NCBI GenBank assembly: GCA_001774685.1
Contig: MFAS01000001.1
Location: 91,489 to 155,488 of the forward strand
DNA: 64,000 bases
Direction of reading: 5' to 3'
Origin: Candidatus Collierbacteria bacterium RIFOXYD2_FULL_45_13
Lineage (GTDB): Bacteria; Patescibacteriota; Microgenomatia; UBA1400; MFAQ01
In this document: positions 43,733 to 63,091 of the stretch, piece by piece
How positions within the stretch are numbered: position 1 is the first letter of the stretch
Layout of the letters: each line of letters opens with the position of its first letter
Position numbers and translations under genes: made by a program
The notes under the pieces: model-generated
Seen by the model: only the letters and a program-made list of their open reading frames with translations
Told to the model about the DNA's origin: nothing
Databases searched by the model: none

Positions 43733-43863
43733 GTATAAAGATTAGCACAATGTGTGCTTTTTGTAACTTCTCGTACATAATAAGCGCACAATTTTGACAA
43801 ACAAAGTGCAATTCTACCAAAGTTCAAGCCAGTCTTGTTTCCGTCGGCCATAAGGACAAAACC

Positions 43864-43903
43864 ATGCCTAAAAAATTTTGCTCGTGGGACGATTTCGAAC
43901 TAT
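43864..43903 (+). repeat. Direct repeat copy 1 (AAATGCCTA...GCTCGTGGGACGATTTCGAACTATT)
   Basis: Matches copy 2 at 44391..44446, with 1 indel in the 21-bp core TGGGACGATT(T)TCGAACTATT. Overlaps the nucleotidyltransferase stop codon. Confidence 0.8.
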
Positions 43904-44376
43904 TTTAGATCTCTAAGTTTCTGAACAATATTCAAATCACTATTACCTCGTTTTTCGATCCTGTACCCATCAGTAGAACTGAAAGTATATGCTTTTATAA
44001 AACATTCAGGCTTAAGGGTATTAACATCGATTCCGTCAACAATAATTTTGACAACATCACTTTTTGGATCGCAAATATTATCTTCGATCAAAACACTCTT
44101 TTCTGCAAAAGCCACTTTAATCCCTTCTGGATTTACAAATTCATGTTCTTTTTCATCGGAGATCTCAAAACCATTACTTGACATCAATTCTTTCAAAAAA
44201 GACCATTTTTCTCCTGTAAACTCATCATCAACCAACAAATCAATATCGTCAAAATCTCTAAACTTCCCTAAGTAGACAGATACTCCCAATGAACCGTATA
44301 GAATAGAGTCGACATTGTTTACTCTGAGGAAACCATCAACTTTCTTGTAATCACCAAGTTTTACAGACATAGGCAA
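43900..44376 (-). CDS. Minimal nucleotidyltransferase-fold protein (Pol-beta-like NTase; ANT/MNT-like)
   Basis: YGSLGVSVYLGKFRDFDDIDLLV (G[SG]...D.D NTase motif). Confidence 0.6.
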   Translation of the reverse strand: MPMSVKLGDYKKVDGFLRVNNVDSILYGSLGVSVYLGKFRDFDDIDLLVDDEFTGEKWSFLKELMSSNGFEISDEKEHEFVNPEGIKVAFAEKSVLIEDNICDPKSDVVKIIVDGIDVNTLKPECFIKAYTFSSTDGYRIEKRGNSDLNIVQKLRDLK

Positions 44377-44390
44377 ATTTTACCAGAGTT

Positions 44391-44446
44391 CGAAAAAATG
44401 CCTATTTCAAATCAAAGCTCGCCAGATGGGACGATTTTCGAACTAT
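44391..44446 (+). repeat. Direct repeat copy 2 (AAAAAATGCCTATTT...GCTCGCCAGATGGGACGATTTTCGAACTATT)
   Basis: See copy 1. Lies 15-70 nt upstream of the nucleotidyltransferase start. Confidence 0.8.
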
Positions 44447-44477
44447 TATCTCTCAGGCGATCTAGTTACAAACAATC

Positions 44478-44759
44478 TCAACGCTTTTTCTCAGACTTCT
44501 TACTCTTTAAATAGAGCCACAATGGAGCAATAACTAGCCCGAACAAACTAAGTAAGGATAACAACCCATTATCTTCTAACGCAAAGAAATACTGTATGAC
44601 CTTTAGAAAGAAGAATGCTACTTGTATCAACACAAAACCAAACACGACAAATTTGGCAGACAAACCCCAGCTTATCTTTCCTTCCGCATAATACTGATAT
44701 AAAACCACGGGCAAAGTGGCTCCAACAATCAATAGTATTAACCAAATCATGTTATTCAT
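44478..44759 (-). CDS. Small three-TM membrane protein, hypothetical
   Basis: Hydrophobic helices. Colinear run of minus-strand genes. Confidence 0.45.
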   Translation of the reverse strand: MNNMIWLILLIVGATLPVVLYQYYAEGKISWGLSAKFVVFGFVLIQVAFFFLKVIQYFFALEDNGLLSLLSLFGLVIAPLWLYLKSKKSEKKR

Positions 44760-44774
44760 AGACTTATTTAATTA

Positions 44775-45254
44775 TTAGTTGTCTACCACTAATGTCCCTG
44801 ACCACTTATCATGCCACCCTATTGGACGATGTTTTCCATCTTCACCCTTGCTTGAAAAAAATGAGAATGGTTCAAATGGTATGAATCTAACCAAAGAACG
44901 AATAAATATTTTTCTAAATTCAGGAGAGTTCCCTTCAGCATCTACAGCTCTCGTATTTGTTAAGAGCTTACCTGGGGTTTTACCAGTCAAAGATTCAAAT
45001 AGTAGATAGTATAAGAAGAAAGCTAGATATCCCAACACCTGCTCTGAGCCGTCAACGAAATCTGCTAAGCCAAGTATTGCTAGTACAAAACCAATACAAA
45101 AGGCAAAAACCATTGCTCCCCCCATATCGATTAAATAATTAAGTAAGCGTTTGTTACTTGTTGCCGGCACAAACTCTTTTGGAGTCTCAAATCCGCAATA
45201 ACGACAATAAGAGGCATTGTTAGAAATTGATCTCCCACAGCTTTTGCAGTTCAT
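44775..45254 (-). CDS. Zinc-ribbon + RDD-family membrane protein
   Basis: N-terminal CKSCG...CRYCG ribbon. RDD-like GKTPGKLLTNTRAVD loop. Confidence 0.55.
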   Translation of the reverse strand: MNCKSCGRSISNNASYCRYCGFETPKEFVPATSNKRLLNYLIDMGGAMVFAFCIGFVLAILGLADFVDGSEQVLGYLAFFLYYLLFESLTGKTPGKLLTNTRAVDAEGNSPEFRKIFIRSLVRFIPFEPFSFFSSKGEDGKHRPIGWHDKWSGTLVVDN

Positions 45255-45281
45255 GTTTTATTTATTATTAATTTATTTAAC

Positions 45282-46016
45282 TTACCTAGTAAGCTCGAAT
45301 GAACTTATAAAATTATCAAAAGATTTCTCAAAGTTTGCATATTCACTTGAGACAATCAAAACCAAGTAAAACTTAACCTTGGGTAGATCATCTCTGACAA
45401 ATCCCATTCCCTTGACATAATAATCTTTCTCAAAAAAACCATTAAACTCTATAGCATCATAACCCTTAAATGAAGTGAGAATAGAATCGTTTATGCTATA
45501 ACCTGACTCTCCTACCATTCCATTGATTGAACCTTCTAAACCTGTCTTGTTGTCAAAATTTTCTGGAGCAATATCATAGTCCCAAGACTGAACCATATAA
45601 ACATTCTGATCATCTGGAGTCGAATAATAATATTGAGTACCACTATAAGTTACTCCATTAATAGAATCTGTTGGAATTCGTTGTGTGGTTGGATATTCTG
45701 GGAAACTGATTTTAAATCCGTGTTCTGCAGAGACAAATTTATCTGACTGATTTGACAAGTTTTGAGTTGTGGGTGTGTCTGCTCCCTCTTCTGGAACATT
45801 TCCTAATACATATAGACCGAATATGATTAAGAAAAGAACTAGTAATCCTAATAAAATATTTTTTAACAATGAAGGTTTTTTGTTTGGTACATACACCACA
45901 TCGCTTATCGAACGACCAATTCGACCTTTACTGGTCTTAGACTGTAATTTTTGACCACATTTTTCACAATATCTACTTCCGAAAGGGTTATTGCGACCAC
46001 AATATTTACACTTCAT
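45282..46016 (-). CDS. Zinc-ribbon single-TM protein with an extracytoplasmic domain, hypothetical
   Basis: CKYCG...CEKCG ribbon, TM LLGLLVLFLIIFGLYVL. Confidence 0.5.
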   Translation of the reverse strand: MKCKYCGRNNPFGSRYCEKCGQKLQSKTSKGRIGRSISDVVYVPNKKPSLLKNILLGLLVLFLIIFGLYVLGNVPEEGADTPTTQNLSNQSDKFVSAEHGFKISFPEYPTTQRIPTDSINGVTYSGTQYYYSTPDDQNVYMVQSWDYDIAPENFDNKTGLEGSINGMVGESGYSINDSILTSFKGYDAIEFNGFFEKDYYVKGMGFVRDDLPKVKFYLVLIVSSEYANFEKSFDNFISSFELTR

Positions 46017-46022
46017 AACTTT

Positions 46023-46799
46023 TTATTTATTAATAAAATTCTTGTTCCAAAAATAGGTCATCGCCTTGATTCTATTAGTAGTCAATGGATGATTTGATAA
46101 GAGCTCTCCCAGCTTCAATCCAAATCCTCCAGCTACATTAAGTTGCTGGATATACCCATCAACATTTAGTTTTTTGTATAGCTCAGCTCCAATTGAAAGT
46201 TTTATCAACGATGAAACAGCAGAATCGATATTTCTCGTAAGCACTAGTCCGCATCTGTCAGAAGTATATTCCGTTTGTCTTTCATAAAACCCCATTACAA
46301 GATTTGAAAAAGGATTATTCATTCCTAGAGGACTCGTTAAGGAAGTTATTTTTGTGTGTCCGGCTTTAAAATGACCTAACTCATGAGCAACGACAAATCT
46401 CAGTTCTTTTGTTGACAACTGTTCTACCAGAGCAGATGTCAGAACAACAGTACAAGTGGAAATACCTAATGTCCACGCATTAAGACTTGGATCCTGTTTG
46501 ATATAAATATTTGCTTTCCTAACGCCCAGCATTTTTGAATACTCAAGCAGAATCTCGAATATCTCAGGAAATTGATTACTATGCACTCTTACAGAATCTC
46601 CAAGATAGTAGAATTGTTGTAATTGAATAAACACTATTCCAATCACTATCATAAAAAGAACAAAGTATACACTTATCAGCGATAATGCCCAGCCCAAGAG
46701 AATTAACAGTGAGAAACTAATAAATAAAGAGATAAATTCCCCACTATTTCGAAACATCCAACTTTCAACATTCTTATCTACATTTTCATATTGATTCAC
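46023..46799 (-). CDS. M48-family zinc metalloprotease (HtpX-like)
   Basis: HExxH in VVAHELGHFKAGH. Two N-terminal TMs. Confidence 0.75.
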   Translation of the reverse strand: MNQYENVDKNVESWMFRNSGEFISLFISFSLLILLGWALSLISVYFVLFMIVIGIVFIQLQQFYYLGDSVRVHSNQFPEIFEILLEYSKMLGVRKANIYIKQDPSLNAWTLGISTCTVVLTSALVEQLSTKELRFVVAHELGHFKAGHTKITSLTSPLGMNNPFSNLVMGFYERQTEYTSDRCGLVLTRNIDSAVSSLIKLSIGAELYKKLNVDGYIQQLNVAGGFGLKLGELLSNHPLTTNRIKAMTYFWNKNFINK

Positions 46800-46938
46800 C
46801 TTAGCTCAATTATAAACCAAATAAATTACCAACAATCCATCAATGAATTTACTGATATAAAGGTCTCGAACTAGTCGTCTGACAAGTGATGTCATCGAGG
46901 AAGGCCCCTGTCAACACGATTAGACTATACTAAATTAC

Positions 46939-47220
46939 ATGAAGGGTATTATCAGCTTTGCTGTACTCATATTTGTTATATTTTGGATTTGGAATCACGT
47001 TATTTCACCCCCTAAATTCACTGGATTCTACTATCCGAATGCCGGTGAACTAAGTGTCTACAAACAAAGTCCCGAATTAGATTCCTTAGAAGAATGTCGA
47101 GAATGGGTTGAGGATATTAGTGGAGGACGAACAGATCAAAATTTTGATTATGAATGTGGAAAAAACTGTAGGCTGAGTGAGGCTGGTGGTATTTATATTT
47201 GTAATGAAACCTTAGAATAA
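46939..47220 (+). CDS. Small secreted Cys-containing protein, hypothetical
   Basis: N-terminal TM/signal peptide, 4 Cys. Confidence 0.4.
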   Translation: MKGIISFAVLIFVIFWIWNHVISPPKFTGFYYPNAGELSVYKQSPELDSLEECREWVEDISGGRTDQNFDYECGKNCRLSEAGGIYICNETLE

Positions 47221-47362
47221 TTCCTAAACTTCTTAACTCAACCCACATTGCTCACAAAAGGACGATCTTCGAAGTCAAAGCCAAAAGATTGGCGAGTAAA
47301 TTGCCAAAAACAGTTTAAAATACACAAAATACTATTTTGTGGTTAAATACTACTCATAAACT

Positions 47363-47596
47363 ATGATTTCAGTTACTTTCGGCGGTAAAGCAAAAAGATT
47401 AATGTATGAGGCGTTGAATAAGTCGGTTGATGGAGAGGGTTATCTCGTAGAAACTCTTAATCCGAAGCAAAGAGTCTTAACTAAAGATGGTGAGTTTATA
47501 AAACCAAATGAGGTTGGAATTGTTAGACCTGGCTCTCAAATATTTATTAAAAAAGATATTGTCTCATTAATTAAATTCGCTTCGGACTTAATTTAA
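47363..47596 (+). CDS. Hypothetical protein (77 aa)
   Basis: Stop codon abuts the start of the next gene (47597). Confidence 0.4.
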   Translation: MISVTFGGKAKRLMYEALNKSVDGEGYLVETLNPKQRVLTKDGEFIKPNEVGIVRPGSQIFIKKDIVSLIKFASDLI

Positions 47597-48481
47597 ATGG
47601 GTTTTTTAAAAGAACTTGGAGAGTTTTTGATAAAGATTTCAGAGGGCAAGCTTCAGTTCAAGGCAGATGTTCACTTCTTAGAAAATGTTAAAGATATTAA
47701 AGTAGGTGAATCCAACACGACTTATGTTGACAACAGAACTCTAATTATTGGTGACGATGCGTTGTCTAACCCTGAAGCGGTAAAAAAACTTACGCAAATA
47801 TTCCAATCTGCGATAGATCCAAAAAATAAACAAGCGTATTTTTCGGTAAATAATGGGCAGGAAAGGTTGTTGGAAGTGAAAGAGGCCGATATTTGTTCTT
47901 CAAACATAGACTTCTTTAGGGGTAAAATCTCCGACACAGATTTTATTATTCTACAAACGGCATCTGTAGTTAAAAACATGTATATCAAGGGAAACCAGCC
48001 CGAAGCAAATAGAATAAAACATGAGACTGTAGAAAGGTATGGCAAAAGAGCAAACAATATCATTAACTTATACGCTGAAAGTTACTTCGATACCACACTA
48101 AAGCCACTATATGAGATACTTTACGAAACGGGAGATGCTGACTCTGTAGATATCTTCGACAAAATGTATAGAATAATTGTTTCTGAGGAAGTTTTTACTT
48201 TATTTGTCTCAACGACACAGACAGAAGAACAGGTTTACGATAAGCTTAAGGAAAAAATAGAGGTCAACAGGTCTTACGGTGCTTACAAGATAAATATTCA
48301 TGGAATAAACAAGTCAAATGTTGACAAGATTAATAATGTTGTGGTTAAACTTATTGAAGAAAAAGTGGTTGATGGAATGCCAAATATCATTCAAAAAGGA
48401 CATGCCATCATGGCGCAAATTAAACTTAGTAAAAGAGAAGGAGATGTTGATCCATCAGATGATGTAGTTTCTATAATTTGA
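47597..48481 (+). CDS. Hypothetical protein (294 aa)
   Basis: Long ORF. No recognisable motifs. Confidence 0.5.
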   Translation: MGFLKELGEFLIKISEGKLQFKADVHFLENVKDIKVGESNTTYVDNRTLIIGDDALSNPEAVKKLTQIFQSAIDPKNKQAYFSVNNGQERLLEVKEADICSSNIDFFRGKISDTDFIILQTASVVKNMYIKGNQPEANRIKHETVERYGKRANNIINLYAESYFDTTLKPLYEILYETGDADSVDIFDKMYRIIVSEEVFTLFVSTTQTEEQVYDKLKEKIEVNRSYGAYKINIHGINKSNVDKINNVVVKLIEEKVVDGMPNIIQKGHAIMAQIKLSKREGDVDPSDDVVSII

Positions 48482-48538
48482 TTAGAATTTAGACACAAGC
48501 TGTGACATTTGCCATACCAGACTATTCCTTACATACAT

Positions 48539-49189
48539 TTAATTACAAAACCATGATCTCTCACATCTGGTAGTGCAGGTGCCAGTAAAGCTATTGCAGT
48601 TCTCCTTACAGCACATTGGTGCCTCCATGGGCTTAACTGTTGGGATTTGAATTGGCTGTTGGATTCGAACATTTGTAACGGGAGCTGGTTTGTTGCTTTG
48701 TGCGTACTCCTGCTGTTTCAGCTTGCACTCATCTTTATCCAAAGTTATGTTTACATTACCCACCCCGCAACATGTCGAATTAACACAAGCGCTTTGTTTC
48801 ATTCTCTTCGTACCCCCACCACATTTTTCATGCAAAGGGCAATCTATCAGAGGGTCTGATTGATCTATCTTGGTATTGGTTTTGCTAAGGTCAGCACTTG
48901 GGATTGAGTACAAGACAAAAAAGAACAAAACAAAGACACCGCCAGACACTCCTAGCATTTTCCAGTCTTTATTTCTAAGGACAGAGACAAAAAACAGTAA
49001 AAATCCAATTACCCCAACGAGTATGCCTAATAAGAGTAGGAGCATGTTGAAACCACTTCCGTTTAAAAAGTTTCCACTTACCGAAAGAATTGAGATATAA
49101 AAGATAGCAATTCCTGACAACCAAAGATAAAAATATTGTCTACTGTGGTTGACAGCGTGACTATTCCTTGTCGACTTACCTTTTTTCAT
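48539..49189 (-). CDS. Membrane protein with a Cys-rich C-terminal domain, hypothetical
   Basis: Two or more TMs, more than 12 Cys in the C-terminal 90 aa. Confidence 0.45.
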   Translation of the reverse strand: MKKGKSTRNSHAVNHSRQYFYLWLSGIAIFYISILSVSGNFLNGSGFNMLLLLLGILVGVIGFLLFFVSVLRNKDWKMLGVSGGVFVLFFFVLYSIPSADLSKTNTKIDQSDPLIDCPLHEKCGGGTKRMKQSACVNSTCCGVGNVNITLDKDECKLKQQEYAQSNKPAPVTNVRIQQPIQIPTVKPMEAPMCCKENCNSFTGTCTTRCERSWFCN

Positions 49190-49196
49190 CTTACAT

Positions 49197-49400
49197 TCAG
49201 TTTACACCTGTCATTTTAATGAGATCAGTCATTTTATACCTTCTATCACCTCTTATACCAAACCTGATGGCCTTCAAAATCCCTTTCTTATCCCAAAGCC
49301 TCAAGGTATTTGGGTGAACTCTCAATATTTTGCATGCCTCAGATAGGGTCACAATTTCATTTAATTTCTTTTTCATAGCCATAATTTTTACCAAGTACAA
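49197..49400 (-). CDS. Excisionase/MerR-like helix-turn-helix DNA-binding protein (HTH_17-like)
   Basis: IVTLSEACKILRVHPNTLRLWDKKGILKAIRFGIRGDRRY. Confidence 0.6.
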   Translation of the reverse strand: MYLVKIMAMKKKLNEIVTLSEACKILRVHPNTLRLWDKKGILKAIRFGIRGDRRYKMTDLIKMTGVN

Positions 49401-50107
49401 TACTTTCCAGTCAACTCGTTAAACCTGCCTCTTTGAGACGAGATGGTCTGCATTCGATAATAATCGATTGGGTCTGAAGTTTTAATTCCATACTGTAAAA
49501 GCCTTTCGGATCTGTTTTGATCATTATCTCTTCTCCAATCTTGACATTCTTTTATCTCAGCATCTGCTCCTCTACGATGACATTTCGAATCCATCTCTAG
49601 AAATGCAACTTCCTCTTCATATTTCTTAAGATCTGAATACACCTTTGTTAACTGTTCACCTGTACATATGGCGGGAACAATTTCCCCCTTTATTTCTCGT
49701 GGAACAGCTATTTGCTGGGTTGGACTAGTAATAGAAAACTTTGGAACAGGAAATTTTTGGAACTTAGAAAGAAAATACTTATCATATTCACGAATCATAT
49801 CTGGCGAGTTCATAATTCTATCAATACTCGCCTTTTCAGTTAATCCAAAAAAATTTCTCAGGACATCTTCAGTAATTGAAGTCGTTGGGTGAAGAATTTT
49901 TGTCGGTGTCACTGATGGTTTTCTGGTTGGATAGTTTGTCGGTTTATTTACAACTGGTGAATCAGGCGCAACCAATGTTACGGTTGGCATTACAATCTCT
50001 GTCGATTCCGTAGCTACTGGTGTGTATTTCTCTATTTGTTTGGGTTGATGACTAAATAAGCTTGAAATAGACACAAACATTGCAACAAAAAAGTTTCTCA
50101 TAACCAT
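49388..50107 (-). CDS. Secreted hypothetical protein
   Basis: Signal peptide MVMRNFFVAMFVSISSLFS. 13-nt overlap with the HTH gene. Confidence 0.5.
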   Translation of the reverse strand: MVMRNFFVAMFVSISSLFSHQPKQIEKYTPVATESTEIVMPTVTLVAPDSPVVNKPTNYPTRKPSVTPTKILHPTTSITEDVLRNFFGLTEKASIDRIMNSPDMIREYDKYFLSKFQKFPVPKFSITSPTQQIAVPREIKGEIVPAICTGEQLTKVYSDLKKYEEEVAFLEMDSKCHRRGADAEIKECQDWRRDNDQNRSERLLQYGIKTSDPIDYYRMQTISSQRGRFNELTGKYCTW

Positions 50108-50152
50108 ATCTTACTTGATATTACCTCACAATAAAATACAATATACCTCATC

Positions 50153-50956
50153 ATGAATATAAAGATTATTGAACCAACTTTTATGGCAAGAGAGATCAGA
50201 AAAGTTACTTCATACGAAAAGATTTTTTTAAACATACTTGAAGATGATGCTTACTTTGAGACTAAAGTATTATCTGCAAGAAAAATGCTTGGTATACCTG
50301 AAAACGGATTTGATATTCAGATAAATGTTCTATCCAAAGATTTCCTTAGTGATGTCCTAATGTCTGAAAGAGGGAAGCCACTTATGGAACTGTTAAAACA
50401 CACTGGTCTAAGTCGGCAAAAACACGAGAGACTACTTAGAAAACTGACCCAAGAAATTTGCAACGAGTATCAAATGCACCTTGGTCGATGGGAATTCCCA
50501 ATATCGCTACTAATCATATACAACAAGTTAATTATGTATACAGGAACAAATTTACCTAAAGTTAATCTTGTAAGTGGTTCTGAGGTGTCAGGAAAAACTC
50601 CTTATAGATATCAAATACCTGACAGTTTTGTCTATTTGGAAATAGAAGATATTCTCACAAAAACAGAGTTAATAAGAAGCGTAAAAAAACTTTGGCCCAA
50701 AATAAACAAAATGTTAAAAAAATACAGAAGTCCAATCACATCTGTTCCAAGAATAAAGATTCAAGATCCTACGCTTGAAATCTATAGATTTATATTCCAA
50801 CAAAGACAAAATGAAGACGCTACTTTTACTCAAATTGCTGACAAAATATCCGACAAGTACAACAAACAGTTTTCCGATAACCAAGCCAACATTTATTTCA
50901 CAAGATATCTTGAAACCATAAATAGCCTCAGAAAATCTACCACATCTCAGACATAA
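50153..50956 (+). CDS. Hypothetical protein (267 aa)
   Basis: Long ORF in an AT-rich block. Confidence 0.5.
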   Translation: MNIKIIEPTFMAREIRKVTSYEKIFLNILEDDAYFETKVLSARKMLGIPENGFDIQINVLSKDFLSDVLMSERGKPLMELLKHTGLSRQKHERLLRKLTQEICNEYQMHLGRWEFPISLLIIYNKLIMYTGTNLPKVNLVSGSEVSGKTPYRYQIPDSFVYLEIEDILTKTELIRSVKKLWPKINKMLKKYRSPITSVPRIKIQDPTLEIYRFIFQQRQNEDATFTQIADKISDKYNKQFSDNQANIYFTRYLETINSLRKSTTSQT

Positions 50957-51411
50957 CAACTGTTATGTTTATCTTTTGATGTATTAAGTTCATCCATAAA
51001 AAGTTAGATTTGCTTGTTATTAAAACAGGCAAATATGAATATAAACAATTTCTTTGTTTCAGCAGATCTTCCCTTAGTCACCACCATCTCCCTTTATTAC
51101 CCAATAGACGCCCTCGACAGATCTAGCCCTCCAAGAGTTCAATTTCTTTTTAAGAGGGATGGCGATCTCGATAAGCTGGTTGAGGCTTTCTGGAAAGACG
51201 AACTCAGAGTCAGTCCTCAAATCTTTTTCAACCAACTGAAAATTATTAAGTCTAGGATTCACAACAACTAGTATGTTGAGTCCAGCGTTGATCTCCGAAC
51301 TCCAACAGATTCTTATCTCCGACTTTGGAATCAATGCTGATTTAAAAGAAACTACCAATATCGGCAATTCTCTGGCTAAGTATTTCGAAATATTAATAAA
51401 CATAAACAAAA

Positions 51412-51612
51412 ATGAAAAACCTCAAGTCCCAACCAAAAAACGCAATTATTAAACTCCACAGAGTGCTGGAACAGGCTATCAAAGCCAAGTGCTACGACTG
51501 CCAGTGTGGGCAAAAGAAACTAGACTGCGAAATCATAGCCTGTCCACTTTACTTACTAAGACCATGGGCAAACAAGAAGTATAGGAAAAATAAACAAATT
51601 TCCCAAGGCTAA
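51412..51612 (+). CDS. Small Cys-rich (zinc-binding-like) protein, hypothetical
   Basis: CYDCQCG...C..IACP. Confidence 0.4.
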   Translation: MKNLKSQPKNAIIKLHRVLEQAIKAKCYDCQCGQKKLDCEIIACPLYLLRPWANKKYRKNKQISQG

Positions 51613-51643
51613 ATAATAAATAATTTGATTCCTAGTAATAAAT

Positions 51644-51997
51644 ATGAATATAGACATACAAGACATCAAAGTAAAAATCAAAATCCTCAAAGGAGCCGGG
51701 AAAACACTTGCTCAAGCCTCCATAACACTGTTTGACTGCTGGACGGAACATGGATGGCGAATAATGACCTCTGAACACCTCGATCCCATCCTTCAAGAAT
51801 ATATATGGATTCAATCCCCTTGTTTTAAAGCTGGCTTCTCTTGGAAAGAAATGGTCTTTATCGAACCCAAAGAACAATATGAAAAAGTTTACGAAAAAAT
51901 CTACGACGCATATAGAATCGCCAAATACAAGGAACCACAGGAAGATGAAGCAGAAAAAATATTCACCGACTCAAAAACGAATGAACCACCTTTCTAG
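51644..51997 (+). CDS. Hypothetical protein (117 aa)
   Basis: ORF with an acidic C-terminus. Confidence 0.45.
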   Translation: MNIDIQDIKVKIKILKGAGKTLAQASITLFDCWTEHGWRIMTSEHLDPILQEYIWIQSPCFKAGFSWKEMVFIEPKEQYEKVYEKIYDAYRIAKYKEPQEDEAEKIFTDSKTNEPPF

Positions 51998-52002
51998 ACA
52001 CA

Positions 52003-52085
52003 TAGTAACTAATAGAGTTACTTATATAGTTACTCTATATAGTAACTATATTGTTTCTCTAAATAGAGTATCTATAAAAGTTACT
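52003..52085. promoter_or_regulatory. Iteron-like cluster: 5 copies of AGTAAC/GTTACT in alternating orientation (candidate operator, origin or recombination site)
   Basis: catAGTAACtaatagaGTTACTtatataGTTACTctatatAGTAACtat ... aaaaGTTACTgt seen directly. Lies 45-125 nt upstream of the 52130 gene. Confidence 0.55.
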
Positions 52086-52129
52086 GTACCCGAAAGTATT
52101 AGAATCTCTAATTATTTCGGATAAACAAA

Positions 52130-52744
52130 ATGGGTAGATATTCGTATTCAAGCAAGTCAGAAGCCGACTCACTAAAAAGCGTCAGTGTCTATTGGCTAAA
52201 TAAATATAAATATCTAGAACCTGGCTATACAAAATCGGGTGGAATTGTATGGACTAGGTCAAATGGATCGAAAAACGACATCAGAATTTGTGTTTCCATC
52301 CCCGATCTTTATGTTCAATTCAAATATATTCAAACAGATCGTGAAACCGGAGAGAAAAAAGACTTTGACTACAAGATTCCACTCATCACGTCAGTATGCC
52401 ACTTTGGTGGAATAAGATATTGGTTCAAATGCAGTATGTATAAAAGCGGAAAGTTCTGTGGTCGGAGAGTAGCTACTGTTTACAAAGATGGAGACTACTT
52501 TGCTTGTAGGCATTGTTACGATCTCACATATTCGAGCAAAAAAGAAAATTATAAGGGTTTCTTTGGAATGTTGACAAAATTAATCTATGAAGAAAAAAGA
52601 ATGGAAGCAATTAGAGACTCTCTCAAGAGAAAGACCTACGCTGGCAGACCAACCAAAAAAGTTCGAAGGTTCCTCCGACTCGCTAGTCATCATCCGGAAA
52701 AGGTTCATGAGCTAATCGACCAAAATATATATCGAGCTCGTTGA
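52130..52744 (+). CDS. Zinc-finger protein, hypothetical (Cys4: CHFGG..C / C..CRHC)
   Basis: Basic C-terminus. Preceded by the iteron cluster and followed by the serine recombinase. Confidence 0.5.
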   Translation: MGRYSYSSKSEADSLKSVSVYWLNKYKYLEPGYTKSGGIVWTRSNGSKNDIRICVSIPDLYVQFKYIQTDRETGEKKDFDYKIPLITSVCHFGGIRYWFKCSMYKSGKFCGRRVATVYKDGDYFACRHCYDLTYSSKKENYKGFFGMLTKLIYEEKRMEAIRDSLKRKTYAGRPTKKVRRFLRLASHHPEKVHELIDQNIYRAR

Positions 52745-52793
52745 TTTAACAATACTTGATAATAGATACCAAATAAACTAAACTAAAATAAAT

Positions 52794-54017
52794 ATGAAAA
52801 GTGTTGTTCTGTGTAGAGTTTCCAGCAAAGAGCAAGAAGAAACCGGATATTCTTTGGGGGCACAGGAAAAGTTCCTGAACTCTTATAGAGAGAAACAAGG
52901 ATACCAACTCACAAAGCTCTTCTCTATCTCCGAATCAGCCAGTGGTAAAAAACAAAGAGAGCTTTTTGATCAAATGATTTCATTCGTCAAGAAGAACGAA
53001 ATAAAGGTCATAATCTGCGAGAAAGTCGATCGTCTCACCAGGAATTTTAAAGACATGGTCATGATCGATGAGTGGTTGGAAGAAGATGAAAGCAGGCAAG
53101 TCCACCTAGTCAAAGACTCTCTAATAATTCATAAAAACTCTCGATCTCAAGAAAAACTCAATTGGGGTATTCGAATCCTGTTCGCCAAAAATTATGTCGA
53201 CAACCTATCGGAAGAAGTCAAAAAAGGGCAAAAAGAAAAGATTTCTCAAGGCTGGCTACCAACAAAACCACCGTATGGATATAAAACCATTGGAGAGAGC
53301 GGACACAAAGAACACATCATTGATGACCGAATTGCTCCGCACATAAAAAGAATGTTTGACCTGTACTCTACCGGGATCTATTCCATCAAACGAATAGTCG
53401 AGGTTATATATCAAGAGGGACTAAGATCACATAAAGGAAATAAACTCACAAAGAGTCGAGTTGGTGAACTCCTATCCGATCCGTTTTATATCGGGAAAAA
53501 TGTATGGAATGGTTCTGAATATATCGGAAAACAAGAACATCTGATTTCAGAAGAAACATTTGCGAAGGTACAACAAGTTTTAAAAGGAAAAACAAACCCA
53601 AAATACAGCAAGCACGATTTCCTTTTCAAGGGTCTGATTAAATGTCAGGAGTGTCATGGTACTATCACATGGGAAACTCAAAAAGGAATCATCTATGGCC
53701 ACTGTAATCACTATCGAAACTGTTCTCAAAAAACCTGGTCAAAAGAAAAGGATACAGAAGAAACGGTTCTTAAGGGTCTGGAAAGTTTGAAACTGTATAG
53801 TCCTAAGCTCACAGAATGGATAAGAAAAGCGTTAAAAGAAAGTCACCAGTCAGAGATTGAATACCACGAATCAACGCAAACAGAACTAAAACAAAAATAC
53901 GACCAAGTACAGAATAGATTAGACCGACTCTTCGATGAAAAGATTGATGGAAATATCGAGGATGCGTTCTATAAAAGAAGTTCACTCAGTATTCCGAGGA
54001 AAAAGAAGCCATCCTAA
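52794..54017 (+). CDS. Large serine recombinase / integrase (resolvase catalytic domain + recombinase domain + zinc ribbon)
   Basis: Catalytic-Ser region VLCRVSSKEQEETGYSLGAQ, VDRLTRN, ribbon CQECHG..C..C, coiled-coil tail. Confidence 0.85.
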   Translation: MKSVVLCRVSSKEQEETGYSLGAQEKFLNSYREKQGYQLTKLFSISESASGKKQRELFDQMISFVKKNEIKVIICEKVDRLTRNFKDMVMIDEWLEEDESRQVHLVKDSLIIHKNSRSQEKLNWGIRILFAKNYVDNLSEEVKKGQKEKISQGWLPTKPPYGYKTIGESGHKEHIIDDRIAPHIKRMFDLYSTGIYSIKRIVEVIYQEGLRSHKGNKLTKSRVGELLSDPFYIGKNVWNGSEYIGKQEHLISEETFAKVQQVLKGKTNPKYSKHDFLFKGLIKCQECHGTITWETQKGIIYGHCNHYRNCSQKTWSKEKDTEETVLKGLESLKLYSPKLTEWIRKALKESHQSEIEYHESTQTELKQKYDQVQNRLDRLFDEKIDGNIEDAFYKRSSLSIPRKKKPS

Positions 54018-54352
54018 GTAGCATTAGACGACATTCAGAGTCCTCCACGAACTATCTTCAGAAATGTCTAGCTGTCTATGATATTTCACAAAATGCCACC
54101 GGGTCATACTCAAACGGAACTGTAGAACAAAAACACGAGTTAATAAATCTAGTCTTTAAGTCCCTGACTCTAAATAATGGGGTGCTTGGATACTCCTACA
54201 ATGATCATTTTGACCTGCTACACAAAGCTGTTCAAGCCACCAATAGTTCGAAAGTCGAAAAAACAGTCTCAGAAGACTCTATTATTTTCGAACTAGGTAA
54301 AAAGACGGATAAATCGAACATTAAAGGCCGGATATTACCCACCCGACCTGTT

Positions 54353-54650
54353 TGGCTCCCCCGCGTGGACTCGAACCACGGACATCCTCCTTACAAGTGC
54401 CCTCAACTTTCGAAGAGGCTTGGACTATCTCATCACCGCTGAGCGGTGTCAGGCGTATAGTCTCTGAACCTTCCGATCAACAAACACAGGGGTTTACCCT
54501 GAGCCTGCCGAAGGGCTTGGCTGCGGATTACCATGGCCTTTCGGTCAACAGGCTTCCCGACAGTTAACCCGATTTTCCACCCAAAATTGCTTTCAGGCGC
54601 TGCAAGTTATGTATTACAGGGAGGCGCTCTACCAACTGAGCTACAGGGGA
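54353..54650 (-). tRNA. tRNA-Asn(GUU) interrupted by a group I intron. Exon 1 is 54616..54650, exon 2 is 54353..54393 with CCA encoded
   Basis: Spliced sequence UCCCCUGUAGCUCAGUUGGUAGAGCGCCUCCCUGU|UAAGGAGGAUGUCCGUGGUUCGAGUCCACGCGGGGGAGCCA. Nearly identical in architecture to E. coli tRNA-Asn (anticodon loop CUGUUAA, variable loop AUGUC, T-loop UUCGAGU, discriminator G). 5' exon ends in U and the intron ends in G. Confidence 0.7.
54394..54615 (-). other. Group I intron (222 nt) inserted between anticodon positions 35 and 36
   Basis: Core elements on the RNA strand: Q AAUCCGCAGC (54520-54529), R GUUCAGAGACUA (54458-54469), S GAGAUAGUCC (54422-54431). A candidate internal guide GCAG pairs with the exon end CUGU. 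The ORF-track ORFs 54182..54442 and 54352..54567 overlap it and are spurious. Confidence 0.65.
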
Positions 54651-54680
54651 ATATAAACGAACCTAGTTATTTTACCAACC

Positions 54681-54992
54681 TCACGCCTTTCCCGCAAGGC
54701 TAATATAGCCAGAATGGACCTCTCTGTGGCAATTTGCACACAACAAAACACATTTTAGGACTTCTTCTTTTGTTTTCTCCCACGATCTAGTCAAGCCTCT
54801 ATCTGACAAACCAAACTCTTTGGTCGACCCCTCTATGTGATGGAAATCGAGCGCTTTTATCGCTCTACAATACCCACAAACCACACATTTTCCACCCAAT
54901 AAGTCCACAGCCATTTGTCTTAATTTCTTTCTACGTTTTTTGACAGATCTAATATTACTTTCCCTTACATCAGCATATTTTCTGGTCTCCAT
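54681..54992 (-). CDS. Free-standing HNH endonuclease
   Basis: CVVCGY...DFHHIEG...CANCH (HNH beta-beta-alpha-metal motif). 31 nt upstream of the intron-containing tRNA. Confidence 0.75.
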   Translation of the reverse strand: METRKYADVRESNIRSVKKRRKKLRQMAVDLLGGKCVVCGYCRAIKALDFHHIEGSTKEFGLSDRGLTRSWEKTKEEVLKCVLLCANCHREVHSGYISLAGKA

Positions 54993-55062
54993 CCATATTC
55001 AATTTACCATAAAAAAACCGAAGCTTCAGAGCCAAATTTGGAAACTTAACTATATCCGAATA

Positions 55063-62362: not shown

Positions 62363-62447
62363 GGAGGGGTCACATAGTGGTCTAGTGTAGAGGTTTACTA
62401 AACCTCCGTGTCGCAAGGCACCATGGGTTCGAATCCCATCCCCTCCG
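62363..62447 (+). tRNA. Class II Ser-type tRNA with an apparent ACU anticodon (atypical)
   Basis: Acceptor GGAGGGG/CCCCUCC. Anticodon arm GAGGU-UUACUAA-ACCUC. 16-nt variable arm. T-arm AUGGG-UUCGAAU-CCCAU. A paralog of the GCU tRNA, with A rather than G at position 34. Confidence 0.6.
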
Positions 62448-62465
62448 CCTGTGTTAATATGAAAT

Positions 62466-63011: not shown

Positions 63012-63085
63012 GCGTTCGTAGCTCAGTTGGATAGAGCACCAGATTGCGGATCTGGGGGTCGGAGGTTCGAGTCCTCCCGAGCGCA
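63012..63085 (+). tRNA. tRNA-Arg(GCG) as read (an unusual isoacceptor; most bacteria use ACG)
   Basis: GCGUUCG-UA-GCUC-AGUUGGAUA-GAGC-A-CCAGA-UUGCGGA-UCUGG-GGGUC-GGAGG-UUCGAGU-CCUCC-CGAGCGC-A. Confidence 0.7.
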
Positions 63086-63091
63086 CTTATG

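What the first reader, a model, noticed from the sequence alone, without database searches (positions are those of the whole stretch)
54353..54650. tRNA-Asn(GUU) interrupted by a 222-nt group I intron in the anticodon loop
Read on the minus strand, the region has a perfect tRNA 5' half (acceptor, canonical D-arm, anticodon stem CCUCC) and a perfect 3' half (GGAGG, variable loop AUGUC, T-arm, acceptor, discriminator G, CCA). The two halves are separated by 222 nt.

The insert carries group I catalytic-core hallmarks:
- Q element AAUCCGCAGC;
- R element GUUCAGAGACUA;
- S element GAGAUAGUCC.

The 5' exon ends in U and the intron ends in G. A candidate internal guide GCAG can pair with the exon end CUGU.

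Splicing at the only U/G-consistent junction gives anticodon loop CUGUUAA. The resulting tRNA closely mirrors E. coli tRNA-Asn. Bacterial tRNA group I introns are best known in tRNA-Leu(UAA), tRNA-fMet, tRNA-Ile and tRNA-Arg, so an Asn-tRNA host with insertion between positions 35/36 is uncommon. A tmRNA interpretation was considered and rejected (see noticed_but_rejected).
Basis: partly seen in the sequence, partly recalled or inferred. Interest (0 to 1): 0.75.

Follow-up and report, generated by a model that had tools for sequence, protein, structure and literature searches.

The report
Self-splicing intron inside tRNA-Asn gene
The asparagine tRNA gene of this tiny-genome bacterium (Candidatus Collierbacteria) really is interrupted in its anticodon loop by a 222-base group I ribozyme intron, but this type of intron was already described and shown to self-splice in related bacteria in 2020-2026, so the finding is correct rather than new.

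Summary
On the minus strand, 54650..54616 is exon 1, 54615..54394 is a 222-nt intron and 54393..54353 is exon 2 with an encoded CCA. Rfam Intron_gpI scores 72.8 bits (E 1.5e-16).

The intron folds into a complete, compact group I core. A U·G pair marks the 5' splice site, the intron ends in G, and GNRA loops cap P2, P5a and P9. The helices are supported by strong covariation in 77 homologues.

The spliced RNA matches E. coli tRNA-Asn over all 76 nt.

The window comes from Candidatus Collierbacteria (Patescibacteria). tRNA-Asn introns at 35/36 are a published, common class in this phylum (Williams 2020; Nakagawa et al. 2026), and a homologue self-splices in vitro. The "uncommon host" claim is therefore outdated: this is another member of a known kind.

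The surroundings are more interesting:
- The HNH gene 30 nt upstream belongs to a family that, in 64 of 80 related loci, lies inside this same intron. Here it is free-standing.
- A close relative has an intron-less tRNA-Asn behind a GIY-YIG gene instead.
- A 10.5-kb serine-recombinase element is inserted at the tRNA's 3' end.

The parts
54616..54650 (-). tRNA-Asn exon 1 (positions 1-35): acceptor UCCCCUG, D arm, anticodon stem CCUCC, loop CUGU. It ends in U35, which is U-1 of the intron.
   Evidence: ARAGORN -i. Exon 1 is identical in relatives L002, L085 and L087.
54394..54615 (-). 222-nt group I intron with no ORF. Window coordinate = 54616 minus intron position.
   Evidence: Rfam RF00028 72.8 bits. 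Own covariance model R1 hits 77 of 81 sources end to end. Covariation.
54600..54619 (-). P1: exon C-U-G-U (54619..54616) plus intron A1-A2, paired with intron U11-U12-G13-C14-A15-G16 (54605..54600). U-1·G13 is the wobble pair at the 5' splice site. The loop is UACAUAAC.
   Evidence: Read from the sequence. GCAGC is invariant in 57 of 57 ORF-containing homologues and present in all 13 short ones. The pair between intron nt +1 and the base 5' of GCAG varies among relatives (A-U, C-G, G-C, U·G).
54578..54599 (-). P2: 9-bp stem (intron 17-25 with 30-38) capped by the GNRA tetraloop GCAA.
   Evidence: Helix 1 has changes on both sides in 8 of 9 pairs.
54449..54572 (-). P3 (intron 44-49 with 162-167), which encloses the P4-P6 domain and the 5' strand of P7.
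   Evidence: Helix 2 has 6 of 6 pairs with changes on both sides. Window U-A against L002 C-G.
54469..54563 (-). P4-P6 domain. P4 is intron 53-60 with 89-95, with U56 bulged. J4/5 is AA. P5/P5a (63-86) carries a GAAA loop. P6/P6a/P6b (96-147) is a long G·U-rich hairpin. The domain contains the 'Q' string AAUCCGCAGC.
   Evidence: Helices 3-8 are 88-98% paired.
54422..54464 (-). P7 (intron 152 and 154-158 with 189-194, A153 bulged). This is the guanosine-binding helix, a pseudoknot with P3, and it encloses the P3 3' strand and P8. It holds the R and S strings.
   Evidence: It is nearly invariant and 91.9% paired in 77 homologues, with no covariation, so this supports conservation only.
54434..54448 (-). 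P8: 6-bp stem CACCGC/GCGGUG with loop UCA.
   Evidence: Helix 8 has 5 of 6 pairs with changes on both sides.
54394..54418 (-). P9 (intron 198-215, GAAA tetraloop) followed by GCACUUG, which ends in omega-G222 (window 54394).
   Evidence: Helix 9/10 covaries. A terminal G was found in all 54 homologous introns mapped by an exon-based search.
54353..54393 (-). tRNA-Asn exon 2 (positions 36-76): U36-A-A, stem GGAGG, variable loop AUGUC, T arm, acceptor CGGGGGA, discriminator G73, encoded CCA.
54681..54992 (-). Free-standing HNH nuclease gene (103 aa; CxxC...HH...CxxCH...H). It stops 30 nt upstream of exon 1. It belongs to the family that is intron-encoded in most homologous tRNA-Asn introns.
54325..54349 (-). 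Terminator-like hairpin, 10 pairs plus a U-rich tail, 4 nt after the CCA.
   Evidence: This is a consensus match only: 2 sites found against 1.2 expected.
43848..54352 (.). About 10.5-kb low-GC element (35.8% GC against 44-45% in the flanks) inserted at the 3' end of the tRNA gene. A large serine recombinase gene (52794..54017, + strand) sits at the tRNA-proximal end. The displaced original flank and a degenerate copy of the T arm/acceptor lie at 43900..43848.

Best explanation
This is the functional asparagine tRNA gene of a Candidatus Collierbacteria genome (Patescibacteria), interrupted between anticodon nucleotides U35 and U36 by a compact, ORF-less, self-splicing group I intron. It belongs to the published 'tRNA-Asn 35/36' class.

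**Proposed mechanism**
1. The precursor is transcribed. The promoter is not established.
2. The intron's guide GCAG pairs with the anticodon-loop bases C32-U35 to form P1, with a U35·G wobble at the splice site.
3. The P3-P9 core folds. It is probably braced by the GNRA loops of P2, P5a and P9.
4. Free guanosine bound in P7 attacks after U35.
5. The intron's last base, G222, then takes the same site, and the freed 3'-OH of U35 attacks after G222.
6. The exons join to give the loop CUGUUAA and a 76-nt tRNA-Asn(GUU) with its CCA already encoded.

**Shown here:** gene anatomy, group I homology, a conserved and covarying fold, and the Asn identity of the exons.

**Inferred:** that this copy actually splices (by homology to an intron tested in vitro) and that it is the cell's only tRNA-Asn.

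**Further inference:** the HNH gene just upstream is the intron's homing endonuclease, sitting outside the intron and acting in trans.
For: **Anatomy and group I identity**
- ARAGORN -i calls tRNA-Asn(gtt) i(36,222) at exactly 54353..54650.
- RF00028 scores 72.8 bits, E 1.5e-16.
- All 62 proposed pairs of P2-P9, P7 included, are canonical.

**Covariation**
- 77 homologues: 90.0% of cells paired against 36-46% when partners are slid by 1-3 columns. 50 of 56 pairs have changes on both sides. The score is 0.425 against 0.03-0.08.
- 9 closest compact relatives: 94.7% against 35-46%, and 35 of 56 pairs with changes on both sides.
- Exon 1 is identical in L002, L085 and L087 while the intron helices change in a compensating way.

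**tRNA identity**
- The spliced RNA matches E. coli tRNA-Asn over 76/76 nt at 77.6% in all 5426 genomes.
- G73 and U1-A72 are as in tRNA-Asn.

**Organism and literature**
- The host is Ca. Collierbacteria, GCA_001774675.1.
- The class is described and a homologue is spliced precisely in vitro, with an omega-G to C mutation blocking exon ligation (PMC13011429).
- The window intron aligns with that tested intron across the whole core. The blocks AUGGUAAUCCGCAGCCAAGCC, UCGGAAGGUUCAGAGACUA and GAUGAGAUAGUCCA are identical.
- The Microgenomatia genomes visible in that paper's supplement excerpt each carry one tRNA-Asn gene.
- No other tRNA-Asn is in the window.
Against: - There is no transcript or splicing evidence for this particular copy.
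- No convincing P10: the first 3'-exon bases UAA pair poorly with the bases 5' of the guide.
- The intron lacks the roughly 30-nt hairpin between P7 and the P3 3' strand that the in-vitro-tested homologue has, so activity cannot simply be transferred.
- The rest of the 1.09-Mb genome could not be scanned for a second, intact tRNA-Asn.
- The covariation alignments were fitted to the model's structure, which inflates pairing somewhat.
- The promoter scan is no better than chance: 2 sites against 1.4 expected.
Confidence: 0.9

Rival explanations
1. The gene is tRNA-Thr(UGU) with the intron at 33/34. This is the call ARAGORN and tFind often make for this class, reached by shifting both boundaries two bases.
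For: ARAGORN labels many homologous loci Thr(tgt) i(33...). Nakagawa et al. report the same ambiguity.
Against: - In the window that boundary would put a Watson-Crick U33-A at the splice site instead of U·G.
- It would make the intron end in U, not G.
- ARAGORN itself calls Asn here.
- The exons match E. coli tRNA-Asn over their full length.
- The discriminator is G73.
- In-vitro sequencing of a homologue showed excision at 35/36.
Confidence: 0.02
2. The gene is a decaying relic: the ribozyme no longer splices and the cell uses another tRNA-Asn gene.
For: The rest of the genome was not searched. P10 is weak. The P7.1-like element of the tested homologue is missing.
Against: - All core pairs are intact.
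- Compensatory changes against close relatives, with exon 1 identical in three of them, show selection on the fold.
- The same HNH, tRNA and intron arrangement is kept in five Collierbacteria-type loci.
- The Microgenomatia genomes visible in the supplement excerpt of PMC13011429 have a single tRNA-Asn.
- In a close relative the syntenic position holds the intron-less tRNA-Asn, so this is the housekeeping locus.
Confidence: 0.05
3. The intron is genuine, but it needs a protein helper or is removed inefficiently, so it acts as a brake or regulator on tRNA-Asn supply rather than as a neutral passenger. Nakagawa et al. raise this idea.
For: Introns persist in extremely reduced genomes. There is no P10. 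P6b is long and G·U-rich.
Against: Nothing in the sequence speaks for regulation. Homologues splice without protein in vitro. A close relative lives with an intron-less allele.
Confidence: 0.1
4. The locus is a tmRNA or another structured RNA rather than a split tRNA.
For: None beyond the tRNA-like ends.
Against: ARAGORN run with tmRNA search on finds none. Rfam gives no tmRNA hit at gathering threshold. There is a complete anticodon arm.
Confidence: 0

Closest known systems
Patescibacteria tRNA-Asn(GUU) group I introns at position 35/36 ('Asn.4Ug' of Williams 2020; Nakagawa et al. 2026, mSystems, PMC13011429)
   Same: - Same host tRNA, insertion site, U-1/omega-G boundaries, guide GCAG and phylum.
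- The core sequence aligns throughout with the in-vitro-validated intron of GCA_016700035.1.
- Same length (222 nt) as the Microgenomatia example GCA_016700135.1.
   Different: - This genome (GCA_001774675.1) is not in their tables, which cover complete genomes only.
- The intron lacks the roughly 30-nt hairpin between P7 and the P3 3' strand that the three published sequences compared here carry.
- P6 is longer.
- The associated HNH gene lies outside the intron, whereas the paper reports HNH genes only inside four long tRNA-Asn introns.
Classical bacterial tRNA group I introns (tRNA-Leu UAA of cyanobacteria, tRNA-Ile CAU of Azoarcus, tRNA-Arg CCU, tRNA-fMet; subgroup IC3)
   Same: - Small (about 200-250 nt), ORF-less, and inserted in the anticodon loop.
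- P1 is built from anticodon-loop bases.
- Compact P1-P9 with GNRA loops on P2 and P9, as in Azoarcus. That comparison rests on my own knowledge of the Azoarcus structure, not on a test here.
   Different: Different tRNA and loop position (35/36 against 33/34, 34/35 or 36/37). By sequence it groups with the Patescibacteria set that the authors class as IA, not IC. I could not run the subgroup models.
Free-standing homing endonucleases that mobilise a neighbouring ORF-less intron: phage T4 mobE/I-TevIII trans-homing (PMC2790892), and cyanophage F-CphI with the psbA intron ('collaborative homing', reviewed in PMC3984707)
   Same: An intact HNH gene lies next to an intron that has no ORF of its own, only about 65 nt from the insertion site. 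Repair of a break in an intron-less allele would therefore co-convert both. Homologues of the same HNH are intron-encoded elsewhere.
   Different: The host is a cellular genome and the target a tRNA gene, not a phage protein gene. No cleavage site or activity is known for this protein. The link is by association only.

Membership tests
Group I intron (Rfam RF00028) | Match to the covariance model above its gathering score | tested here: met
   72.8 bits against 50, E 1.5e-16.
Group I intron (Rfam RF00028) | P1 with a U·G wobble at the 5' splice site, formed by an internal guide sequence | tested here: met
   CUGU pairs with GCAG, giving U-1·G13. The guide is invariant in the homologues.
Group I intron (Rfam RF00028) | Conserved core P3-P4-P5-P6 and P7-P8-P9, with the P3/P7 pseudoknot | tested here: met
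   All pairs are canonical. P2-P6, P8 and P9 covary. P7 is invariant and 92% paired.
Group I intron (Rfam RF00028) | Terminal guanosine (omega-G) before the 3' splice site | tested here: met
   G222 at window 54394. G was found in all 54 homologues mapped from their exons.
Group I intron (Rfam RF00028) | Guanosine-dependent self-splicing | not testable with these tools
   Shown in vitro only for homologues (PMC13011429).
Patescibacteria tRNA-Asn 35/36 intron class | Host gene is tRNA-Asn(GUU) and the intron lies between nt 35 and 36 | tested here: met
Patescibacteria tRNA-Asn 35/36 intron class | Host organism is in Patescibacteria | tested here: met
   The window's proteins are those of Candidatus Collierbacteria, GCA_001774675.1.
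Patescibacteria tRNA-Asn 35/36 intron class | Sequence homology to published members | tested here: met
   Alignment with three published introns; the core blocks are identical.
Subgroup IA (assigned to this class by Nakagawa et al.) | Extra pairing(s) P7.1/P7.2 between the 5' strand of P7 and the 3' strand of P3. This definition is from my own knowledge of Michel and Westhof's scheme. | tested here: not met
   Only 3 nt (UAC) separate P7 from the P3 3' strand in the window. The published relatives have about 30 nt forming a hairpin there.
Subgroup IA (assigned to this class by Nakagawa et al.) | Best score with the IA subgroup covariance models | not testable with these tools
   The subgroup models are not available here.
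Subgroup IC3 (classical tRNA introns) | Best score with the IC3 subgroup model, or closest sequence relatives being IC3 | not tested
   The architecture is similarly compact, but its closest relatives are the Patescibacteria set.
HNH nuclease (Pfam PF01844), for the upstream ORF | HNH motif with its zinc-binding cysteines | tested here: inconclusive
   - The window protein scores 17.1 bits, below the 21.4 cut-off.
- 18 of 26 family members match PF01844, best E 5.6e-6.
- CxxC, HH and CxxCH..H are invariant.
- The family profile hits the endonuclease domain of a group II intron maturase (6me0_C, E 4.5e-4) and McrA.
Homing endonuclease of the tRNA-Asn intron, for the upstream ORF | Physical association with the intron or its target gene | tested here: met
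   78 of 80 related loci have the gene inside a tRNA-Asn gene (inside its intron, 64 loci) or next to it (14 loci).
Homing endonuclease of the tRNA-Asn intron, for the upstream ORF | Cleaves the intron-less allele | not testable with these tools
   No biochemical data.

The most novel reading that the evidence does not exclude
The tRNA-Asn gene of Patescibacteria may be a battleground for selfish elements, and this window may catch an intermediate state.

The HNH homing endonuclease is normally carried in the P1 loop of this intron. Here it sits free-standing 30 nt upstream of the tRNA, beside an ORF-less intron. From there it could drive 'collaborative' (trans) homing of itself and the intron together.

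Free-standing and intron-borne forms are scattered across the HNH tree. A sister lineage has lost the HNH and the intron and carries a GIY-YIG gene with a different, intron-less tRNA-Asn. That pattern is what competing endonucleases overwriting one another by co-conversion would leave.

This would be a cellular, tRNA-gene counterpart of the phage T4 mobE and cyanophage F-CphI cases, and a natural series for how mobile group I introns are assembled and taken apart.
Probability: 0.35. Interest if true: 0.55.

Novelty: new member of a known kind. Interest (0 to 1): 0.3.

Why it matters
**For annotation.** Default tRNA finders miss this gene, so the genome would wrongly appear to lack tRNA-Asn. 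That affects completeness estimates for candidate-phyla genomes. The published papers already make this point, and this locus is one more example.

**For biology.** The intron itself adds little beyond a compact variant that lacks the P7.1-like hairpin. The context is worth a specialist's look. One 11-kb stretch shows an ORF-less ribozyme, its displaced HNH endonuclease and a serine-recombinase island in the tRNA's 3' end. A sister genome shows a GIY-YIG gene and an intron-less allele instead. This is comparative material on how introns and homing endonucleases associate, separate and replace each other in cellular genomes.

Tried and rejected
1. **'Fossil intron' idea.** The Rfam alignment placed model P1/P2 on the last 45 nt of the HNH ORF. 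By eye, AAUAACUAGGU there resembles the J2/3-P3 segment of ORF-containing introns. I built model R2 (guide-P2-J2/3-P3-P4 5' strand) from 57 ORF-containing introns. It finds the true intron 5' part in all 13 free-standing loci (26.9-73.6 bits). At the HNH 3' ends it finds nothing: the best score in window 54620..55000 with filters off is 2.1-2.9 bits. Rejected. The Rfam 5' extension is an alignment artefact.
2. **A remnant of exon 1 upstream of the HNH ORF** (window 54993..55062). None is visible. The same spacer is shared with L002 and abuts the holin-like gene.
3. **Direct repeats flanking the low-GC island.** The repeat finder gave nothing convincing. The island border was found instead by synteny with L002.
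4. **Promoter for the tRNA.** The scan gives one weak site that overlaps the tRNA start, no better than shuffles. TGGTAAAAT between the ORF and the tRNA looks like an extended -10, but that is unproven.
5. **Whether this genome is in the published tables.** It is not.
6. **MAFFT alignment of short introns.** It misaligned P8/P7' of L047, so covariance-model alignments were used instead.
7. **HNH tree.** Neighbour-joining on 102 columns is too poorly resolved to give the direction of change between intron-borne and free-standing forms.

Full report
**1. What is there**

Read on the minus strand, window 54650..54353 is a tRNA gene in two pieces.
- Exon 1 (54650..54616) is UCCCCUG-UA-GCUC-AGUUGGUA-GAGC-G-CCUCC-CUGU.
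- Exon 2 (54393..54353) is UAA-GGAGG-AUGUC-CGUGG-UUCGAGU-CCACG-CGGGGGA-G-CCA.
- Between them lie 222 nt.

ARAGORN in default mode does not see the gene. The joined exons fold into a standard 76-nt cloverleaf. Their best match in every one of 5426 complete E. coli genomes is the annotated tRNA-Asn, aligned over 76/76 nt at 77.6% identity.

**2. The insert is a group I intron**

Rfam's Intron_gpI scores 72.8 bits (gathering score 50, E 1.5e-16). It is the only non-tRNA family found in the 64 kb.

I worked out the fold by hand and with ViennaRNA:
- P1: exon CUGU plus A1-A2, paired with U11-U12-G13-C14-A15-G16. U-1·G13 is the wobble pair.
- P2: 17-38, nine pairs, GCAA loop.
- P3: 44-49 with 162-167.
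- P4: 53-60 with 89-95.
- P5/P5a: 63-86, GAAA loop.
- P6/6a/6b: 96-147.
- P7: 152-158 with 189-194, A153 bulged.
- P8: 168-182.
- P9: 198-215, GAAA loop.
- Omega-G: position 222.

Every proposed pair is canonical.

Only the 35/36 junction gives both a U·G pair at the 5' site and a terminal G. The Thr(UGU) 33/34 alternative, which tRNA finders often pick for this class, gives neither.

I see no convincing P10.

The Rfam coordinates (54401..54705) overshoot at the 5' end. The model's P1/P2 was fitted onto the end of the upstream ORF, and exon 1 plus the true P1/P2 were treated as an insertion.

**3. Is the fold real?**

I built a covariance model from the window intron from the guide to omega-G (212 positions, 56 pairs). 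I searched it against 80 related loci fetched through the neighbouring HNH protein.

It matched 77 of 81 sources end to end, with E from 2.6e-85 to 6e-06, and matched only once in the window.

On that alignment:
- 90.0% of cells are paired, against 36-46% when the 3' partners are slid by 1-3 columns.
- 50 of 56 pairs show changes on both sides.
- The covariation score is 0.425, against 0.03-0.08 for the slid controls.

For the nine closest compact relatives the figures are 94.7% against 35-46%, and 35 of 56 pairs.

P7 is almost invariant (91.9% paired, no covariation). That fits a catalytic helix but does not add to the covariation evidence.

These alignments are fitted to the model, which flatters the numbers. 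The margin is large, however, and individual examples are clear in raw sequence: P3 U-A against C-G, P8 CACCGC/GCGGUG against CCCC/GGGG, and P9 UU/UU against AG/CU between the window and L002.

Exon 1 is identical in the window, L002, L085 and L087.

**4. Where it comes from and what is known**

The window's proteins are those of Candidatus Collierbacteria, assembly GCA_001774675.1, contig MFAP01000001.1 of 1.09 Mb. This is class Microgenomatia of the Patescibacteria.

The literature search turned up two directly relevant papers.
- Williams 2020 (bioRxiv 10.1101/2020.01.27.920355) expanded bacterial intron-bearing tRNAs from four classical types to 21. According to Nakagawa et al., these include Asn.4Ug.
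- Nakagawa et al. 2026 (mSystems, PMC13011429) found tRNA-Asn(GUU) introns at 35/36 in 15 of 95 complete Patescibacteria genomes. They showed that ARAGORN and tFind often miscall them as Thr(UGU). They also showed precise, GTP-dependent self-splicing in vitro for one tRNA-Asn and one tRNA-Asp intron; an omega-G to C mutant blocked exon ligation.

This genome is not in their tables.

I aligned the window intron with three of their sequences taken from the supplement.
- It aligns with the tested intron of GCA_016700035.1 along the whole core, with identical P5'/P4'/P6, P6'/P7 and J8/7/P7' blocks.
- It lacks the roughly 30-nt hairpin that all three published sequences carry between P7 and the P3 3' strand.
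- It has a longer P6.

The authors class the set as subgroup IA. The window intron lacks what I understand to be the IA hallmark (P7.1/P7.2), and I could not run the subgroup models. I therefore leave the subgroup open and call it a compact variant of the class.

The Microgenomatia genomes visible in the supplement excerpt each have a single tRNA-Asn gene, which fits this being the only copy. I could not scan the rest of this genome.

**5. Verdict on the finding**

The observation and the interpretation are both correct. The novelty claim is out of date: the class is published, common in this phylum and experimentally validated. This is a new member of a known kind.

**6. The surroundings (not part of the finding)**

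*(a) The HNH gene.*
The ORF 54681..54992 (minus strand; 103 aa) stops 30 nt before exon 1. It is a small HNH nuclease with CxxC, HH and CxxCH..H invariant. Of 26 relatives, 18 match PF01844. The family profile reaches the endonuclease domain of a group II intron maturase in the PDB. It has more than 550 homologues.

In 80 loci from species-representative genomes, combining ARAGORN, an exon-based search and the covariance model, the gene is placed as follows:

| Position of the HNH gene | Loci |
|---|---|
| Inside a 500-700-nt tRNA-Asn 35/36 intron (in the P1 loop, its last codons overlapping the guide GCAG and P2) | 64 |
| Upstream of a tRNA-Asn with a short ORF-less intron, as in the window | 8 |
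| Directly upstream of an intron-less tRNA-Asn (L011, L041) | 2 |
| Downstream of a tRNA-Asn | 1 |
| Adjacent, on the opposite strand | 3 |
| Undetermined | 2 |

The published study reports HNH genes only inside four long introns. It also states that such endonuclease-bearing 35/36 introns occur only in Patescibacteria. Six of my loci are from Acidobacteriota, including a 5.5-Mb Pyrinomonadaceae chromosome (L055).

A rough tree scatters the free-standing forms among the intron-borne ones.

The arrangement resembles trans or 'collaborative' homing known from phages (PMC2790892, PMC3984707). There is no biochemical evidence for it here.

*(b) A sister lineage.*
In a lineage whose RpoD falls in the same 90% cluster (L082-L084):
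- The HNH gene is deleted except for its last roughly 20 nt.
- The spacer and the first 7 nt of the old tRNA remain.
- A GIY-YIG ORF (PF01541, E 2e-16) follows.
- Then comes an intron-less tRNA-Asn whose sequence differs markedly from the window's exons.

This shows intron presence/absence polymorphism at the same locus, and it suggests replacement by co-conversion.

*(c) An inserted element.*
Synteny with L002 ends exactly at the tRNA 3' end. L002's downstream flank reappears at window 43883..43848, next to a degenerate copy of the T arm/acceptor.

About 10.5 kb of 35.8% GC DNA, with a large serine recombinase gene (52794..54017) at the tRNA-proximal end, is therefore an element integrated into the 3' end of this split tRNA gene. 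L085 carries a different serine recombinase at the same place.

Noticed in passing
window 54681..54992 (-); loci L002-L081: The HNH gene 30 nt upstream of the tRNA belongs to a family that lies inside the homologous tRNA-Asn intron in 64 of 80 related loci. It is free-standing next to the tRNA in 14 others: 8 like the window, 2 beside an intron-less tRNA-Asn, 1 downstream and 3 on the opposite strand. This suggests a homing endonuclease that moves between intron-borne and free-standing positions.
   Followed up: partly
L082 6655..7081 (also L083, L084): A sister Collierbacteria lineage keeps only the last roughly 20 nt of the HNH ORF, the spacer and the first 7 nt of the tRNA. A GIY-YIG ORF follows, and then an intron-less, sequence-divergent tRNA-Asn. 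ATTCCCCTG is repeated on both sides of the GIY-YIG cassette.
   Followed up: partly
window 43848..54352: About 10.5 kb of low-GC DNA (35.8% against 44-45%) is inserted at the 3' end of the tRNA-Asn gene. A large serine recombinase gene (52794..54017, + strand) sits at the tRNA-proximal end. The old flank plus a degenerate T-arm copy lie at 43900..43848. L085 has a different serine recombinase (560 aa) at the same site.
   Followed up: partly
L039, L040, L042, L054, L055, L057: HNH-containing tRNA-Asn 35/36 introns occur in Acidobacteriota genomes (Pyrinomonadaceae and Blastocatellales, including the 5.5-Mb chromosome OY970389.1). The published survey found endonuclease-bearing introns of this type only in Patescibacteria.
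   Followed up: no
window 62363..62449 (+): ARAGORN and Rfam call a tRNA-Ser with anticodon ACU (loop UUACUAA), 5 nt after tRNA-Ser(UGA). A tRNA-Ser(GCU) lies nearby. An A34 serine tRNA is unusual in bacteria. tRNA-Arg(GCG) at 63012..63086 is also present instead of the usual ACG.
   Followed up: no
L029 1517..1535: In this locus the free-standing HNH ORF runs into the tRNA. Its stop codon TAG lies within the tRNA, at positions 8-10 (tccgcgaTAGctc).
   Followed up: no
loci L009, L015, L018, L019, L021, L023, L026, L027, L035 and others: Many contigs that carry the ORF-containing intron end within a few hundred bases after the HNH gene. This may reflect assembly breaks caused by intron or endonuclease presence/absence variation in the sampled populations.
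   Followed up: no
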